The position numbers and the translations under genes are program-made. The notes beneath the pieces are model-generated. The model was not told the origin of the DNA. It saw only the letters and a list, made by a program, of their open reading frames with translations, and searched no databases. Positions 10,891 through 53,789 of a stretch of DNA of 64,000 nt are shown piece after piece; the stretch's first letter is position 1; each line of letters begins with the position of its first letter. The stretch spans positions 24,753 to 88,752 of the forward strand of contig JAHEZM010000005.1 of NCBI GenBank assembly GCA_023251075.1. The letters are read 5' to 3'. This DNA comes from Flavobacteriales bacterium. GTDB lineage: Bacteria > Bacteroidota > Bacteroidia > Flavobacteriales_C > GCA-002722245.

Positions 10891-10918
10891 ACCCAACCAA
10901 TGTTGTTTTCAAAACGTA
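10891..10918 (+). promoter_or_regulatory. ECF-sigma-type promoter ACCCAACC-N16-CGTA upstream of 10950
   Basis: gtACCCAACCaatgttgttttcaaaaCGTATTCTAtgg with a spacer of exactly 16 nt; it lies 32 nt upstream of the ATG. Confidence 0.6.
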
Positions 10919-10949
10919 TTCTATGGTTAAACCATAAAACTACTAGGTT

Positions 10950-12800
10950 ATGAATACTAAAACAGGTGATCAAAATATTTTGACTTTTGTATTTGCACTG
11001 GTGTTATCAGTGTTTTCAACCTTTGTGTTGAATGCTCAAAATGTAATTTCTCGAGATAAATTCAACGACAAAGCTTTATTGTATACCGCAGCTTATACTG
11101 CAGGAACAACAGTTACCACGAGCAATGATGCACAAGATTTTATTACCGCACCTTCGAGTGTGGCAATGAATTATTCAATTGCTAAAAAAGTGGGGAATGT
11201 TGCCAATAGCTATTTTGCATCGATGATGAACTATGTGAAATACCCAAAAGATTGGTCGTTTAATGTCGATAAAATTATCCTTAAACATAAAGGGGGATCA
11301 AACAAGCTGGCCATTAAAATTAAGTTGTATGAAGACAATGACATTTCGGGTGGTAATACTGCCGGAGATGAGCAATGGATGAGCACTTCGGTAACTGCAG
11401 GTCAATTGGGATGGACTACCTCTGAGTTTAATTTGGTTGATTTTACCCGTGTGGGCTCTACAGGAGCAGTGAATAGTAGTATTGATTTAAATCGTTTAAG
11501 GGCATGGGAAATTTATGTGGAGGATGTATCGGGAAAAGGAGATACCTCAGTAATAAAATTTGATGAATTATTAATTCACACCAATTACACTTCACCTACT
11601 TCTGGTGATGCTTACGTAACAGGTGCTTTTACACAATTGTGGAATGATGTAGGTTGTAAATGTGGTTTGTGGAATCAGGCGAGATGGGAGCAGGAATTTC
11701 AGAAAATGAAAGACATGAAGATGACTTCTTTTGTAATACAATACGGAGTATATGATATTTATTCATGGTATTCTCCAACTACAGTTCCGGGAATTACTCA
11801 GGGCAATACTTTCAACACCATTAACACGATGGTTAAAGCGGCTGAAAATGTAGGAATAGGATTGTATATTGGTTTGTATTATACCCCTTCGAAATGGGAT
11901 AATGCCAGTAAAACCAATGCAGCTACCTATTCGAATTTGTTGGTTACACAAAAACATGTGATTGATGACATTCATAATTTATTTGGTTCAAGCACTGCCT
12001 TTAAAGGTTGGTATATTCCGGAAGAAATTGATGATTATTCCTGGCAATCGGGCAACGCTAAAACCTATTTATTTCAATGGGTGCAAGATGTTGCTGCCTA
12101 TGCGCATACAAAAAATGCGCAAAAACCAGTAATGATTTCCCCTTTCTTTAATTTGTGGATGCCTGCCGATTGGCTAAAGCAATGGTATGAAGATTTTTTT
12201 ATTGCTGCTCCCGATTTAGATTTAGTAATTCCGCAGGATGGAGTGGGTATTACTCTCAAAAATGTGAATTATGATGTACCCCTTTATCTTTCAAAAATTA
12301 AAGAAGCTTGCGATGCACATCAGGTACAATTTGGTGTAAATATTGAATCGTTTCAACAAACTTCGGGATGGCCGATCGACAATGGTAATTTTGCGGCTAC
12401 TTCTGCTACTATCGATAGATATAAAGCACAATTGTGGGAAGCTGGATTACACAACCCGGTAGAAATTTTAACTTTCGAATGGGCCTATATGGAACCAGGA
12501 AATGGCGCCGCTGCAGATGATTTATACAACAATTATTTATTGTATGTGACTTCCATTACAACTAATGTTGCAGAAACTATTGATAACGTTATTCAGGTTT
12601 ATCCTAATCCGGCTAATCAGCACCTCTATTTCAATCAAAAAATTTCATCGGTGAAGTTATTTAGTGTTGAAGGAAAATTATTACTGACACAAAATAATAT
12701 TCAATCGTTAGATGTTGCTCTGTTGCCCGCAGCAGTTTATACGCTGCAAGTTCAGCAAGCCAATGGTGCACTACAAATTTTAAAAGTGGTGAAAGACTAA
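10950..12800 (+). CDS. Secreted TIM-barrel glycoside-hydrolase-like protein (DUF4434-like), T9SS type-A cargo
   Basis: Signal peptide and C-terminal Por_Secre_tail (VYPNPANQHLYFN...LQILKVVKD). The central region CKCGLWNQARWEQEFQKMKDMKMTSFVIQY resembles the DUF4434/GH-like family. Confidence 0.5.
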   Translation: MNTKTGDQNILTFVFALVLSVFSTFVLNAQNVISRDKFNDKALLYTAAYTAGTTVTTSNDAQDFITAPSSVAMNYSIAKKVGNVANSYFASMMNYVKYPKDWSFNVDKIILKHKGGSNKLAIKIKLYEDNDISGGNTAGDEQWMSTSVTAGQLGWTTSEFNLVDFTRVGSTGAVNSSIDLNRLRAWEIYVEDVSGKGDTSVIKFDELLIHTNYTSPTSGDAYVTGAFTQLWNDVGCKCGLWNQARWEQEFQKMKDMKMTSFVIQYGVYDIYSWYSPTTVPGITQGNTFNTINTMVKAAENVGIGLYIGLYYTPSKWDNASKTNAATYSNLLVTQKHVIDDIHNLFGSSTAFKGWYIPEEIDDYSWQSGNAKTYLFQWVQDVAAYAHTKNAQKPVMISPFFNLWMPADWLKQWYEDFFIAAPDLDLVIPQDGVGITLKNVNYDVPLYLSKIKEACDAHQVQFGVNIESFQQTSGWPIDNGNFAATSATIDRYKAQLWEAGLHNPVEILTFEWAYMEPGNGAAADDLYNNYLLYVTSITTNVAETIDNVIQVYPNPANQHLYFNQKISSVKLFSVEGKLLLTQNNIQSLDVALLPAAVYTLQVQQANGALQILKVVKD

Positions 12801-12809
12801 CCCCATAAA

Positions 12810-51470: not shown

Positions 51471-52151
51471 TTGAAAGTGTTAACAAACGGGGCATTTGCT
51501 TCAAATATAAATTGTGTTGGAAATGTATTTTACATATATTTCCATTGCAAAGAGATAACAGGGGAACTACTTTTTAAAGAGAATAAAGTGATTACAAATG
51601 AGCTCATAAATAAATGTATCCTTCAAGATATTAGAGCGCAGCTTGAGATGCACGAGACTTGTTATCATTTATTGATGCCTGTTTGTTATAAGTTTTTGCA
51701 CAATGAAGAAATGGCAAGAGAACTCTATAATCAGGGTTTTCTTAAAATTTTAGACTCTCTGAAAACCTTCGATCAATCGAAAGATTTTTCACAGTGGGCT
51801 AAAAAAATAATGATGAATAAATTAATTGATGAATATAGGAGTAGAAAATCTTTACGTAATGTGATCGATCAAAATTTAGAAGTAAATTTTGTTTCCAATA
51901 CTTTAAAATCCTCTGATGTTAATTCTTACGTGAACAAGGAAGAAGAGGAGAGAGTGTCGTATTTATTGGCTAAATTACCTTTAACAACACGACGGGTTTT
52001 TAGTATGTTTGCTTTAGAAGGATATTCGCATCAGGAGATTAGTGATTTGATGAATATGTCCACCGGTACTTCTAAATGGCATGTTTCAAACGCAAGAGAA
52101 ATTTTAAAAAAATATTTGAGCAGAAAAAGTAAGTTGGTAGAAAATGAATGA
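51471..52151 (+). CDS. RNA polymerase ECF-type sigma-70 factor (paralogue of 20778..21347). The likely true start is GTG at 51588.
   Basis: From VITNELINKCILQD onward it aligns with MIEEQLIKRCIEKD of the first sigma. It carries the same C-terminus MSTGTSKWHVSNAREILKKY. Confidence 0.8.
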   Translation: MKVLTNGAFASNINCVGNVFYIYFHCKEITGELLFKENKVITNELINKCILQDIRAQLEMHETCYHLLMPVCYKFLHNEEMARELYNQGFLKILDSLKTFDQSKDFSQWAKKIMMNKLIDEYRSRKSLRNVIDQNLEVNFVSNTLKSSDVNSYVNKEEEERVSYLLAKLPLTTRRVFSMFALEGYSHQEISDLMNMSTGTSKWHVSNAREILKKYLSRKSKLVENE

Positions 52152-53580
52152 TGTAAATAGCGACATACCTGTGTTTGTTTACAAACCAGAATACCGCGAA
52201 GAAATGCGTAAAATCCTTGAGAAAAGGAAAAAAAGACGTGTTTTCTTTTGGTTGTTTTTTGGAGGCGTAATGCTGGCCGCAGCTTCTACTTTTTATGTTG
52301 TTACAAATAATAAAGAGCAACATAATCAAATTGCTGATTCAAATATTATTGAAAACAAAATTCCTGAAAGTACGAGTTCTACTCAAGAGGAAGTAGTGCT
52401 TGGTTCAAACTCAAAAAAGCAAGATATTGTTGTTCAAGATTCTTCCGTTAAGAAGGTTCCTCTTGTATCTGCTTCCAGCACCCAAAAAACGGAAATACCC
52501 AATGCACAGAAAATAAAGAATAAAGAAAACAAAGCAAATCATATTTCATCGGATTTTCCCCTCAGTACCCCATTATTATCTTCCTCTTCAAAAACAAGGA
52601 ATAATAGAGAAGAAGTAAAAACAAATGAAGAATCGGAAATTCAAAAGGAAAATAAAAAAGTTGAATCGGAACAAAACAAATCCAACCAATCACAAGAAGC
52701 AAAAAAAAATGAAACTCCTGTTGTAACAATTGCTGCTCCTGAATATACGGATGCTATAAAAGATACTCTTCCAAAAGTTGCAGAAGAAAAAGTATTGAAA
52801 AAAGATTCAGGAGTGGTGGCAGCACAATCTACTCCCAACTCTCCATCACCAGATACTTTACCTGCTAAAAAAGAAGAAGAGGAGAAAAAGAAAAAAGCGA
52901 AAAATTATTTTTTGGATGATGTAAATGTTTATGCTGGTGGTTTAATACACAATACATTTGGCAATGGAGTTTATAGTAATGGTACAGCATTTTCTTATCG
53001 TGCAGGTATTGGAGTTGCTAAAAAAATAAATGATCATTCCCTATTATCTGCTGGTTTGGAAGGCACCTACTACAATCGTTTGTATAATTTTGGTGGAAAT
53101 GATTCTTCAATACTCACAAATGACGGGCAAACGATGGTAGGGTATGATTATGTAGAAAAGAGAAGAACCTATTTTTATGAAAACAATTATTCTATTTCAT
53201 TGGCAATGCCTATTTCATACATTTATCAGCTCGATAAACTGAATGTTTATGGCGGTTTAAATTTCGAATATTTTATTCAAAATAGTAACCGTGTTAAAAA
53301 TGATACCACTGTTTATGGAGTAAATACTTTTATTGTTAATACTTATGTGTATCAATATAAAATGTCGGGAGAATCCACTGTTAAAAATGATTTTTCCGGA
53401 GTGAGTCGATTTCAAATGGCTGCATTTGTGGGTGCTGATTATCGTTTCAGCAATAGATTTTCTTCCGGGGTTCGTTTATCAACCGGACTGATTGATTTGC
53501 TTAGCAACAAATGGATCTCTAGTTCGGGATATAATAGTTTATGGAATGCTAACCTGTATTTAAAGTTTCATTTACTTTAA
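52144..53580 (+). CDS. Putative anti-sigma-like membrane protein with Lys/Glu/Ser-rich linker and C-terminal beta-barrel-like domain (paralogue of 19583..20755)
   Basis: Overlaps the sigma gene by 8 nt. The N-terminus YKPEYREEMRKILEKRKKRRVFFWLFFGGVMLAAASTFYVV has the same layout as the first module. The C-terminal ~230 aa form a beta-rich domain. Confidence 0.5.
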   Translation: MNDVNSDIPVFVYKPEYREEMRKILEKRKKRRVFFWLFFGGVMLAAASTFYVVTNNKEQHNQIADSNIIENKIPESTSSTQEEVVLGSNSKKQDIVVQDSSVKKVPLVSASSTQKTEIPNAQKIKNKENKANHISSDFPLSTPLLSSSSKTRNNREEVKTNEESEIQKENKKVESEQNKSNQSQEAKKNETPVVTIAAPEYTDAIKDTLPKVAEEKVLKKDSGVVAAQSTPNSPSPDTLPAKKEEEEKKKKAKNYFLDDVNVYAGGLIHNTFGNGVYSNGTAFSYRAGIGVAKKINDHSLLSAGLEGTYYNRLYNFGGNDSSILTNDGQTMVGYDYVEKRRTYFYENNYSISLAMPISYIYQLDKLNVYGGLNFEYFIQNSNRVKNDTTVYGVNTFIVNTYVYQYKMSGESTVKNDFSGVSRFQMAAFVGADYRFSNRFSSGVRLSTGLIDLLSNKWISSSGYNSLWNANLYLKFHLL

Positions 53581-53761
53581 TCGCTAGAAAACAAAGAGAA
53601 TTTTTTGCTCATCATTTTGTTTTTTAAATCGCTGATTCTTATCACTACTATTTTATTTTCATTGAAAATTTCATCTGCAGAAATCGTTAGAGAGGAGAAT
53701 TCGTTCGATAAATATTTTTCTAAAAGTATTCTTCCCTGTACATCGAAAATTATTGGTAACA

Positions 53762-53789
53762 ACCCAACCTCTTCGAGGCGAGCTCCGTA
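53762..53789 (+). promoter_or_regulatory. ECF-type promoter upstream of the third giant adhesin gene
   Basis: aACCCAACCtcttcgaggcgagctcCGTAATCTTAAGC, spacer 16 nt; it lies ~200 nt upstream of the ATG. Confidence 0.55.

What the first reader, a model, noticed from the sequence alone, without database searches (positions are those of the whole stretch)
10891..53789. Conserved bipartite ECF-type promoter ACCCAAC(C/G/T)-N16-CGTA(n)TCTTA found 12 times, mostly ahead of T9SS cargo genes
A strictly spaced motif occurs in the correct orientation immediately upstream of many genes. The -35-like block ACCCAACC is followed by exactly 16 nt and then CGTA(T/C/A)TCTTA. The genes are 10950, 12934, 16019, 22979, 49834 and 53993 on the plus strand, and 28871..30124, the 38668 operon and the Kazal-like gene (twice) on the minus strand. 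It also precedes the ECF sigma gene 20778..21347 itself. AAC-N16/17-CGT is the classic ECF sigma promoter architecture, as in the SigW/SigE class. Almost every gene carrying the motif encodes a T9SS-CTD protein or a secreted lipoprotein. Cargo-looking genes without it (40320, 38899, 60981, 62567) form the negative set. This is consistent with a single ECF sigma regulon dedicated to T9SS cargo and adhesins, with the sigma encoded in the same window.
Basis: seen in the sequence. Interest (0 to 1): 0.8.

Follow-up and report, generated by a model that had tools for sequence, protein, structure and literature searches.

The report
ECF sigma promoter driving T9SS cargo
A strictly spaced DNA motif that recurs 12 times in this Bacteroidota window is very probably the promoter read by a locally encoded alternative sigma factor. 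[quoted passage not shown]

Summary
ACCCAAC-N17-CGTA occurs 12 times where 0.02 is expected, every copy is intergenic, and the spacing never varies. No weaker copies exist.

Eleven copies point at a gene start. Eight units begin with a T9SS C-terminal-domain (CTD) gene. Two copies precede a Kazal-like lipoprotein gene and one precedes ECF sigma gene 1. The twelfth copy faces no gene.

Comparative data support the regulon idea. In 0.97 Mb of loci that encode relatives of the sigma, the motif lies upstream of the sigma gene in 56 of 70 loci. Of 21 other genes directly downstream of a motif copy, 20 carry Por_Secre_tail, against 9 of 140 control genes.

The gene after each sigma has the architecture of a dual membrane-spanning (Dma) anti-sigma factor, described in Bacteroides in 2024 and paired there with ECF21 sigmas. 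The kind of system is therefore known. I found no description of three things: the promoter code, the T9SS-cargo regulon, and its expansion in this genome. No transcript data exist. I could not resolve which of the two paralogous sigmas reads the motif.

The parts
10891..10924 (+). Promoter-like site 1: ACCCAACC-N16-CGTATTCTAT. The -10 block ends 31 nt before the ATG at 10950.
10950..12800 (+). Target gene: DUF4434 plus Por_Secre_tail (T9SS type A CTD).
12863..12896 (+). Promoter-like site 2, the best-scoring site (38.6 bits).
12934..15836 (+). Target unit of two genes. 12934..14736 is pectate-lyase-like with a CTD. The overlapping gene 14733..15836 has a weak CTD.
15890..15923 (+). Promoter-like site 3, placed directly after a terminator-like hairpin.
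16019..19582 (+). Target gene: 1187-aa PKD-like protein with CHU_C (type B CTD).
19583..20755 (-). Anti-sigma 1 with Dma-like layout: short N-terminal FEYKxEFW motif, a KKR stretch followed by one hydrophobic helix, a low-complexity linker and a C-terminal barrel-like domain.
   Evidence: architecture as in PMC10927553
20778..21347 (-). ECF sigma gene 1 (sigma-2 and sigma-4 domains only). The ATG at 21323 gives the 181-aa product on record.
21376..21409 (-). Promoter-like site 4, directly upstream of sigma 1 (autoregulation). A 15-bp hairpin plus U-run follows 6 nt after CGTA.
21423..22076 (-). Kazal-like lipoprotein gene with three CGCDG-TY repeats. Its position upstream of the sigma is conserved in orthologous loci.
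22100..22133 (-). Promoter-like site 5, proximal to the Kazal-like gene. Orthologues L002 and L003 have the same site.
22169..22202 (-). Promoter-like site 6, distal to the Kazal-like gene and the weakest site (22 bits).
22889..22922 (+). Promoter-like site 7.
22925..27688 (+). Target gene: roughly 1570-aa PKD protein with CHU_C. The likely start is the ATG at 22979.
28871..30124 (-). Target gene: 417-aa protein with Por_Secre_tail.
30149..30182 (-). Promoter-like site 8.
30185..38668 (-). Target operon: a CTD protein (37805..38668), a secreted 472-aa protein, two ~600-aa proteins that end in Phe (outer-membrane-protein-like), two lipoproteins, and probably the ROK kinase gene.
38740..38773 (-). 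Promoter-like site 9.
49755..49788 (+). Promoter-like site 10.
49834..51198 (+). Target gene: GH18 (chitinase-like) with Por_Secre_tail.
51287..51320 (-). Site 11, an orphan in inverse orientation upstream of sigma 2. It has no ORF and no stable RNA fold downstream. Locus L054 has a site at the same position and orientation.
51471..52151 (+). ECF sigma gene 2, a paralogue 53% identical to sigma 1. Homology places the likely start at the GTG at 51588. It has no forward motif.
52144..53580 (+). Anti-sigma 2 (Dma-like). It matches the family profile over its full length.
53762..53795 (+). Promoter-like site 12, with a leader of about 200-230 nt.
53993..57607 (+). Target gene: ~1200-aa protein with CHU_C.

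Best explanation
The motif is the promoter recognised by RNA polymerase carrying the locally encoded ECF sigma factor: sigma 1, and probably also its paralogue sigma 2.

**Inferred from homology.** Each sigma is held at the inner membrane by the product of the next gene. That product has the layout of the Dma family of Bacteroidota anti-sigma factors: a roughly 30-aa N-terminal sigma-binding segment, one inner-membrane helix, a long low-complexity tether, and a C-terminal outer-membrane-type beta-barrel. A signal at the cell surface or envelope would free the sigma.

**Shown by sequence and comparison.** The freed sigma would read ACCCAACC at -35 and CGTA at -10, 16 nt apart.

**Inferred.** Transcription would start about 6-8 nt after CGTA.

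**Shown.** The targets in this window are:
- eight units that begin with T9SS cargo genes (adhesin-like PKD/CHU_C proteins, GH18, a pectate-lyase-like protein, DUF4434, and an operon of envelope proteins);
- a Kazal-like lipoprotein gene;
- sigma gene 1 itself, which would give positive feedback.

The same sigma family, promoter and CTD-cargo arrangement recurs across diverse Bacteroidota, usually with only two or three sites per locus. In this genome the regulon has expanded to at least 10 units within 43 kb.
For: - **Statistics and strictness:**
- **Position:** in 10 of the 11 gene-facing sites the -10 block ends 30-101 nt before the start codon. No Bacteroidetes sigma-A box (TAnnTTTG) lies within 200 nt upstream of any motif gene.
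- **Sigma identity:** sigma-2 and sigma-4 domains only. SigW is the closest solved structure.
- **Autoregulatory copy:** conserved in orthologues L002/L003 and in 56 of 70 family loci.
- **Spacing test in 0.97 Mb of family loci:** 109 sites at N17, of which 93 are intergenic, against 15-19 sites at each neighbouring spacing.
- **Cargo enrichment:** 11 of 12 and then 9 of 9 downstream genes carry a CTD, against 9 of 140 controls. The cargo proteins are PKD- or SprB-repeat proteins.
- **Anti-sigma family:**, with OMP_b-brl_2 hits in orthologues. The architecture matches Dma1/Reo (PMC10927553).
Against: - No transcription start, expression or binding data exist for this organism.
- Only 64 kb of a 173-kb contig was available, and the genome is not in the GTDB-representative collection. 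Genome-wide enrichment is therefore untested.
- Three CTD genes in the window lack the motif (38809, 40320, 60981), so the regulon is not all cargo.
- One site points at no gene.
- Sigma 2 has no forward copy.
- The window's own two anti-sigma proteins do not reach Pfam significance for the barrel domain, and structure prediction failed.
- ECF21 membership of the sigma is inferred from its gene neighbour, not tested.
Confidence: 0.8

Rival explanations
1. The motif is an ECF promoter, but its reader is sigma 2, or both paralogues act redundantly and each is released by its own anti-sigma sensor. Sigma 1 would then be mainly a target.
For: Sigma 1 and sigma 2 are 53% identical, and their region 4.2 helix is nearly identical (STGTSKWHVSNAREILKKY). 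Sigma 2 is flanked by two forward sites on cargo genes and has its own conserved inverted site.
Against: Only sigma 1 and its orthologues carry a forward copy upstream of their own operon. More distant family members that have a single sigma also carry it.
Confidence: 0.3
2. The motif is read by another ECF sigma encoded elsewhere in the genome, and its presence next to these sigma genes is incidental.
For: Bacteroidota carry many ECF sigmas, about 22 per genome on average (PMC7826278). Only part of the contig was seen.
Against: The motif travels with this sigma family in about 60 independent loci with G+C content of 30-62%.
Confidence: 0.06
3. The motif is the operator of a conventional transcription factor, for example the LytTR response regulator encoded at 27712..28422, and not a promoter.
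For: A LytTR regulator gene lies inside the region.
Against: - The two halves of the motif are unlike each other, so they are not a direct or inverted repeat.
- Every copy has a fixed orientation relative to the downstream gene, at promoter distance.
- AAC/CGT with 17-nt spacing is the ECF signature.
- The motif co-occurs with the sigma gene and not with a LytTR gene in related loci (and later).
Confidence: 0.03
4. The copies are remnants of a short mobile or repetitive element.
For: There are many copies in a region that also holds an integrase fragment and a zeta-toxin-like gene.
Against: Only the two short blocks are conserved. The spacer and flanks are unrelated between copies. All copies are intergenic and oriented toward genes, and the motif is conserved across distant genomes.
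Confidence: 0.01

Closest known systems
[quoted passage not shown]
   Same: In both, the sigma gene is followed directly by a gene whose product has four parts: a ~30-40-aa N-terminal segment, one transmembrane helix, a long low-complexity linker, and a C-terminal OMP_b-brl_2-type barrel. Both are restricted to Bacteroidota. A lipoprotein gene often comes third in the operon.
   Different: - The Bacteroides regulon is a few lipoproteins (NigD1, NigD2, BT_1287) tied to vesicle production, and the papers read give no promoter motif. Here the targets are T9SS CTD cargo genes.
- The third-gene lipoproteins here are not NigD-like by Pfam; some carry PKD domains.
- In the sigma 1 lineage a Kazal-like lipoprotein gene precedes the sigma instead.
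- Orthology to Das1 was not tested.
PorXY-SigP circuit of Porphyromonas gingivalis (PMC4800418) and the SM6 ECF-type promoters of Flavobacterium psychrophilum (PMC9723704)
   Same: An ECF sigma is linked to type IX secretion. SM6 promoters have AAC at -35 and a CGT box at -10.
   Different: - Those circuits drive T9SS machinery genes (porT, porV, porP, gldN, porU), not cargo.
- SigP is activated through the response regulator PorX, and its proposed motif is unrelated.
- The SM6 examples have GTAAC or ACAAC at -35, not ACCCAACC.
SigW of Bacillus subtilis and other AAC/CGT-class ECF promoters
   Same: The -10 block CGTA, the AAC in the -35 block, the rigid 16-17-nt spacer, and autoregulation. 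SigW is the closest solved structure (E = 9e-12).
   Different: A different phylum, a different anti-sigma type (RsiW) and a different regulon. The -35 block here is longer (ACCCAACC).

Membership tests
ECF sigma-dependent promoter (AAC/CGT class) | Bipartite -35 AAC and -10 CGT blocks with a rigid 16-17-nt spacer | tested here: met
   All 12 sites have the same spacing; other spacings give 0-1. In family loci there are 109 sites at N17 against 15-19 at neighbouring spacings.
ECF sigma-dependent promoter (AAC/CGT class) | Upstream of genes, in the same orientation, at promoter distance | tested here: met
   Eleven of 12 sites meet this. The -10 block ends 30-101 nt before the start codon, and about 200-230 nt before it for site 12. 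One site is an orphan.
ECF sigma-dependent promoter (AAC/CGT class) | A copy upstream of the sigma's own gene or operon (autoregulation) | tested here: met
   Site 21376-21409(-) in the window. Orthologues carry it, as do 56 of 70 family loci.
ECF sigma-dependent promoter (AAC/CGT class) | Transcripts start a few bases downstream of the -10 block and depend on the sigma | not testable with these tools
   No RNA data exist for this organism.
ECF (group 4) sigma-70 factor | Sigma-2 and sigma-4 domains only, about 180-200 aa | tested here: met
   Pfam Sigma70_r2, Sigma70_r4_2 and Sigma70_ECF, plus TIGR02937, for both sigma proteins.
ECF21 sigma with Dma anti-sigma (Das1-Dma1, EcfO-Reo) | Anti-sigma with a short N-terminal sigma-binding segment, one transmembrane helix and a long disordered linker | tested here: met
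   The sequence shows a FEYKxEYW-type motif, a KKRR stretch followed by a hydrophobic helix, and an S/N/K/E-rich linker of 100-200 aa. Binding to the sigma was not tested.
ECF21 sigma with Dma anti-sigma (Das1-Dma1, EcfO-Reo) | C-terminal eight-stranded outer-membrane beta-barrel (OMP_b-brl_2) | tested here: inconclusive
   Orthologues and 9 family members hit PF13568. The window's two proteins match a profile of that family (E = 2e-20 and 5e-51) but do not reach Pfam significance themselves. The AlphaFold model was unusable (pLDDT 30).
ECF21 sigma with Dma anti-sigma (Das1-Dma1, EcfO-Reo) | The sigma belongs to ECF group 21 | not tested
   No ECF-group profiles were available. NCBIfam gives only the generic ECF superfamily. 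Membership is inferred from the published statement that ECF21 sigmas are encoded next to Dma proteins (PMC13088901).
SigP/PorXY regulon of T9SS machinery | Targets are T9SS component genes, and the sigma is controlled by PorX/PorY | tested here: not met
   The targets here are cargo genes and there is no por/gld machinery gene in the window. The sigma has its own membrane anti-sigma. The published SigP motif differs. Sequence orthology to SigP was not tested.
T9SS cargo (targets) | C-terminal sorting domain (Por_Secre_tail/TIGR04183 or CHU_C/TIGR04131) | tested here: met
   Eight of the 10 motif-driven units in the window begin with a gene that has a Pfam CTD. In related loci the figure is 20 of 21.

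The most novel reading that the evidence does not exclude
In Bacteroidota that have a T9SS, the Dma-type anti-sigma and its ECF21-like sigma would form a dedicated surface-sensing switch for T9SS cargo, chiefly adhesin-like PKD/SprB/CHU_C proteins and secreted glycosidases. The Dma protein reaches from the outer membrane to the cytoplasm.

This would be a cargo-specific circuit, separate from the PorXY-SigP circuit that controls the secretion machinery. Its promoter code, ACCCAACC-N16-CGT, would be nearly invariant.

In this genome the circuit would have grown into a master regulon. Two paralogous sensor pairs would converge on one promoter code. The Kazal-like inhibitor and the inverted site upstream of sigma 2 would act as built-in feedback elements.
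Probability: 0.3. Interest if true: 0.75.

Novelty: new member of a known kind. Interest (0 to 1): 0.55.

Why it matters
Very little is known about how T9SS cargo genes are regulated. The one characterised sigma circuit, PorXY-SigP, acts on the secretion machinery. The Dma anti-sigma family was described only in 2024, in gut Bacteroides that lack a T9SS, with a regulon of three lipoprotein genes and no promoter motif in the papers read.

If this reading is right, it supplies three things:
- a precise promoter code that is easy to search for;
- a predicted function for this sigma/anti-sigma family in environmental Bacteroidota, namely switching on surface adhesins and secreted enzymes;
- a directly testable regulon.

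The motif scores all-or-none in the window, so it could be used to annotate cargo regulons in metagenome-assembled genomes.

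Tried and rejected
- **Extended motif against 185,579 GTDB species genomes.** The scan returned 47 single hits across unrelated phyla, which is noise. The source genome is not in that collection, and the TCTTA extension is lineage-specific.
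- **Full-text search for the string CCCAACC.** It returned primer noise only.
- **Homologue searches for the two anti-sigma proteins.** Each found only the query itself, probably because the word-based prefilter fails on these low-complexity proteins. No alignment was therefore available for structure prediction. The AlphaFold run on the two-sequence alignment gave pLDDT 30 and was discarded.
- **Rfam scan of the window.** No families were found.
- **Folding the RNA downstream of the orphan site in the window and in L054.** Neither was more stable than shuffled sequence, so a structured small RNA is not supported there.
- **Homologue of the family's third-gene lipoprotein in the window.** None was found. 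Testing whether those lipoproteins are NigD-like gave no Pfam hit.
- **Cluster look-up for organism names.** No names are on record. The taxon is known only as an uncultured Bacteroidota with 35% G+C, whose sigma relatives are labelled Bacteroidetes or Flavobacteriales bacterium.
- **Supplements of the ECF reclassification paper and of the Dma paper, and the EcfO paper.** None is held. I could not check whether a promoter motif for ECF21 has been published.
- **Weaker motif copies upstream of the CTD genes that lack the motif.** None was found.

Full report
**1. The observation**

ACCCAAC-N17-CGTA occurs 12 times in the 64-kb window at exactly the coordinates given. Dinucleotide-preserving shuffles give a mean of 0.02.

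The motif is unusually strict:
- Twelve of the 15 ACCCAAC heptamers in the window are followed by CGTA at one fixed distance.
- CCAAC...CGT occurs 12 times at that spacing and 0-1 times at each other spacing from 13 to 20.
- No one-mismatch variants exist.
- A weight matrix built from the sites scores them 22-39 bits, and nothing else in the window exceeds 8 bits.

Only the two blocks are conserved. The 16-nt spacer and both flanks differ between copies, so this is not a repeat element. All 12 copies are intergenic although 91.7% of the window is coding.

**2. What lies downstream**

Eleven copies point at a gene start. In ten of them the -10 block ends 30-101 nt before the start codon. For site 12 the distance is about 200-230 nt.

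Pfam shows the following:
- Eight transcription units begin with a gene that carries a T9SS C-terminal sorting domain.
  - 10950: DUF4434 plus Por_Secre_tail.
  - 12934: pectate-lyase-like protein plus CTD, followed by 14733 with a weak CTD.
  - 16019, 22925 and 53993: large PKD-like proteins with CHU_C.
  - 28871: CTD protein.
  - 37805: CTD protein that heads an operon of signal-peptide proteins running down to about 30185.
  - 49834: GH18 plus CTD.
- Two copies precede a lipoprotein gene with three Kazal-like repeats (21423..22076).
- One copy precedes ECF sigma gene 1.

None of these upstream regions contains the Bacteroidetes housekeeping box TAnnTTTG within 200 nt. Five of 30 other genes have one.

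Three CTD genes lack the motif: 38809, 40320 and 60981.

The twelfth copy, 51287-51320(-), faces the 3' end of the GH18 gene. It has no ORF downstream and no RNA fold more stable than shuffled sequence.

**3. The sigma factors and their partners**

The window encodes two ECF sigmas, each with sigma-2 and sigma-4 domains only. They are 53% identical, and their -35-reading helix is nearly identical.

Each sigma gene is followed, with overlap or a 22-nt gap, by a gene whose products are homologous to each other. Both products match a profile built from the genes that follow sigma relatives in other loci (E = 2e-20 and 5e-51).

These proteins share one layout:
- about 30 N-terminal residues with a conserved FEYKxEYW-type motif;
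- a basic stretch and a single hydrophobic helix;
- a 100-200-aa low-complexity linker;
- a C-terminal domain that hits OMP_b-brl_2 in orthologues.

[quoted passage not shown] That work showed that the N-terminal 40 residues bind the ECF21 sigma Das1 and that the barrel sits in the outer membrane.

The window's own two proteins do not reach Pfam significance for the barrel. A two-sequence AlphaFold model was unusable. The barrel is therefore inferred by homology.

**4. Comparative test**

The source is a 172,965-bp metagenome contig. It is absent from the GTDB-representative collection, where a scan for the extended motif returned only 47 scattered single hits.

*Close orthologues of sigma 1.* Orthologues at 58-62% identity keep the order Kazal-like gene, sigma, Dma-like gene. 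L002 and L003 carry ACCCAACC-N16-CGTAC upstream of the Kazal-like gene. L004 and L053 carry a TGTAC variant.

*The wider family.* A profile of the sigma family retrieved 80 metagenomic loci. At least 523 candidate stretches encoded relatives. G+C content in these loci ranges from 30 to 62%.
- In 0.97 Mb of family loci, CCAAC-N17-CGT occurs 109 times, 93 of them intergenic. Spacings 15, 16, 18 and 19 give 15-19 each, mostly inside genes.
- In 56 of 70 loci with enough upstream sequence, the motif lies within 260 nt of the sigma start. In most of the remainder it sits one gene further upstream, ahead of a Kazal-like or CTD gene.

*What the other copies precede.*
- The exact motif precedes 12 distinct non-sigma genes. 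Eleven have Por_Secre_tail and the twelfth is the Kazal-like gene.
- Nine further genes downstream of the relaxed motif all have Por_Secre_tail.
- Of 140 random ORFs of at least 200 aa from the same loci, 9 have it, and two of those nine are themselves relaxed-motif targets. Fisher p = 1.1e-10 for the first set.

*The typical distant module.* The order is: motif, sigma (187 aa), Dma-like protein (~480 aa), lipoprotein (~355-400 aa, some with PKD domains), second motif, then a multi-PKD or SprB-repeat protein with a CTD.

G+C-rich lineages use ACCCAACC-N16-CGTGTATG. The family has 49 cluster representatives at 50% identity with E <= 1e-30.

**5. Mechanism**

*Shown.* The element is bipartite, rigidly spaced, orientation-specific and at promoter distance. 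It travels with one ECF sigma family and precedes that sigma's own gene and T9SS cargo genes.

*Established background.* AAC/CGT promoters with 16-17-nt spacers are read by ECF sigmas. SigW uses TGAAAC-N16-CGTA, and SigW is the closest solved homologue.

*Inferred.*
- The sigma is sequestered by the Dma-like protein and released after a signal at the envelope or cell surface. Release would probably be by proteolysis, as proposed for Dma1.
- Transcription starts 6-8 nt after CGTA.
- Sigma 1 amplifies itself.
- Both paralogues may read the same code and so feed two inputs into one regulon.

The function of the Kazal-like inhibitor is unknown. One speculative possibility is negative feedback on a protease that cleaves the anti-sigma.

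**6. Comparison with what is known**

*Kind of system.* An ECF sigma with a Dma-type anti-sigma is a known kind of system. The papers read report a small lipoprotein regulon (NigD1, NigD2, BT_1287) tied to vesicle production, no promoter motif and no T9SS connection.

*Known sigma links to T9SS.* SigP in P. gingivalis and the SM6 promoters of F. psychrophilum concern machinery genes, and their motifs differ.

*Possible model-organism counterpart.* F. psychrophilum has an ECF21 operon, THC0290_0638-0640, whose third gene encodes a 354-aa "putative sensor". That size matches the third-gene lipoproteins seen here. No sequence comparison was possible.

*Literature coverage.* Six full-text literature searches on the topic found no description of an ECF regulon of T9SS cargo genes or of this motif; a seventh, for the term ECF21, added nothing further. 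I could not read the EcfO paper or the ECF group descriptions, so a published ECF21 promoter logo cannot be excluded.

**7. Verdict**

I classify the finding as a new member of a known kind: an uncharacterised branch of the ECF/Dma system with a well-defined promoter and a predicted T9SS-cargo regulon, markedly expanded in this genome.

The main gaps are three. There is no transcript evidence. There is no whole-genome scan. It is unresolved which sigma reads the motif.

Noticed in passing
window 21336-21385 (-): A perfect 15-bp hairpin followed by UUUGUUUU begins 6 nt after the CGTA of the sigma 1 promoter (dG -23.9 kcal/mol, z = -5.9). It is the terminator of the Kazal-like gene. It would also sit at the very 5' end of transcripts from the sigma 1 promoter, so it may act as an attenuator. 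Orthologues L002 and L003 have a hairpin plus T-run between the Kazal-like gene and the sigma, but no internal promoter copy.
   Followed up: partly
window 51287-51320 (-); L054 9837-9863 (-): An inverted motif copy lies just upstream of sigma 2 and points away from it, toward the 3' end of the preceding CTD gene. L054 has a copy at the same place and orientation. Its sigma is the sigma 2 orthologue (68% identical), yet the upstream cargo genes are unrelated. The downstream RNA is not structured. The copy may drive an antisense transcript or interfere with transcription.
   Followed up: partly
L110 13276-13420 (+); L075 12082-12240 (+): In two related loci the second motif copy is followed by no cargo gene. 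Instead there is a structured region of about 110 nt that ends in a strong intrinsic terminator (z = -6.3 and -5.0). These are candidate ECF-dependent small RNAs.
   Followed up: partly
L004 ~8990-9030; L053 6510-6548: Two sigma 1 orthologue loci have TGTAC in place of CGTAC at the -10 block, upstream of the Kazal-like gene. G+C-rich lineages (L092, L102, L108, L114, L117) use CGTGTATG.
   Followed up: no
window 21423-22076 (-); L002, L003, L004: A lipoprotein with three bacterial Kazal-like repeats (PVCGCDGVTYDN) is conserved immediately upstream of sigma 1 orthologues. It is the first gene under the motif. Its role is unknown.
   Followed up: partly
window 30185-38668 (-): The operon under site 9 encodes seven products: a CTD protein, a secreted 472-aa protein, two ~600-aa proteins that end in Phe (outer-membrane-barrel-like), two lipoproteins and a ROK sugar kinase. 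None of the first six has a Pfam or NCBIfam match.
   Followed up: partly
window 62567-63688 (-): A lipoprotein with long Thr/Gly-rich tandem repeats (GGTTDPGTTTGGG...).
   Followed up: no
window 43896-49113: This stretch holds an integrase fragment, a zeta-toxin/AAA-like gene and several small genes of unknown function. It lies between two cargo clusters and may be a remnant of a mobile element.
   Followed up: no
window 4432-6132 (+): A stand-alone NRPS condensation-domain protein with a TubC-type N-terminal docking domain. It sits next to an alpha/beta hydrolase gene and an FAD oxidoreductase gene.
   Followed up: no
window 22290-22835 (+): A small (181 aa) signal-peptide protein that ends in ...YAF, which looks like an outer-membrane barrel. 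It lies between the divergent Kazal-like gene promoters and site 7, and has no family match.
   Followed up: no
F. psychrophilum THC0290_0638-0640 (PMC9723704 supplement): This operon encodes an ECF21 sigma (186 aa), a putative anti-sigma (225 aa) and a 354-aa 'putative sensor'. The gene order and sizes resemble the sigma, anti-sigma and lipoprotein modules found here. It is a possible experimentally tractable relative.
   Followed up: no
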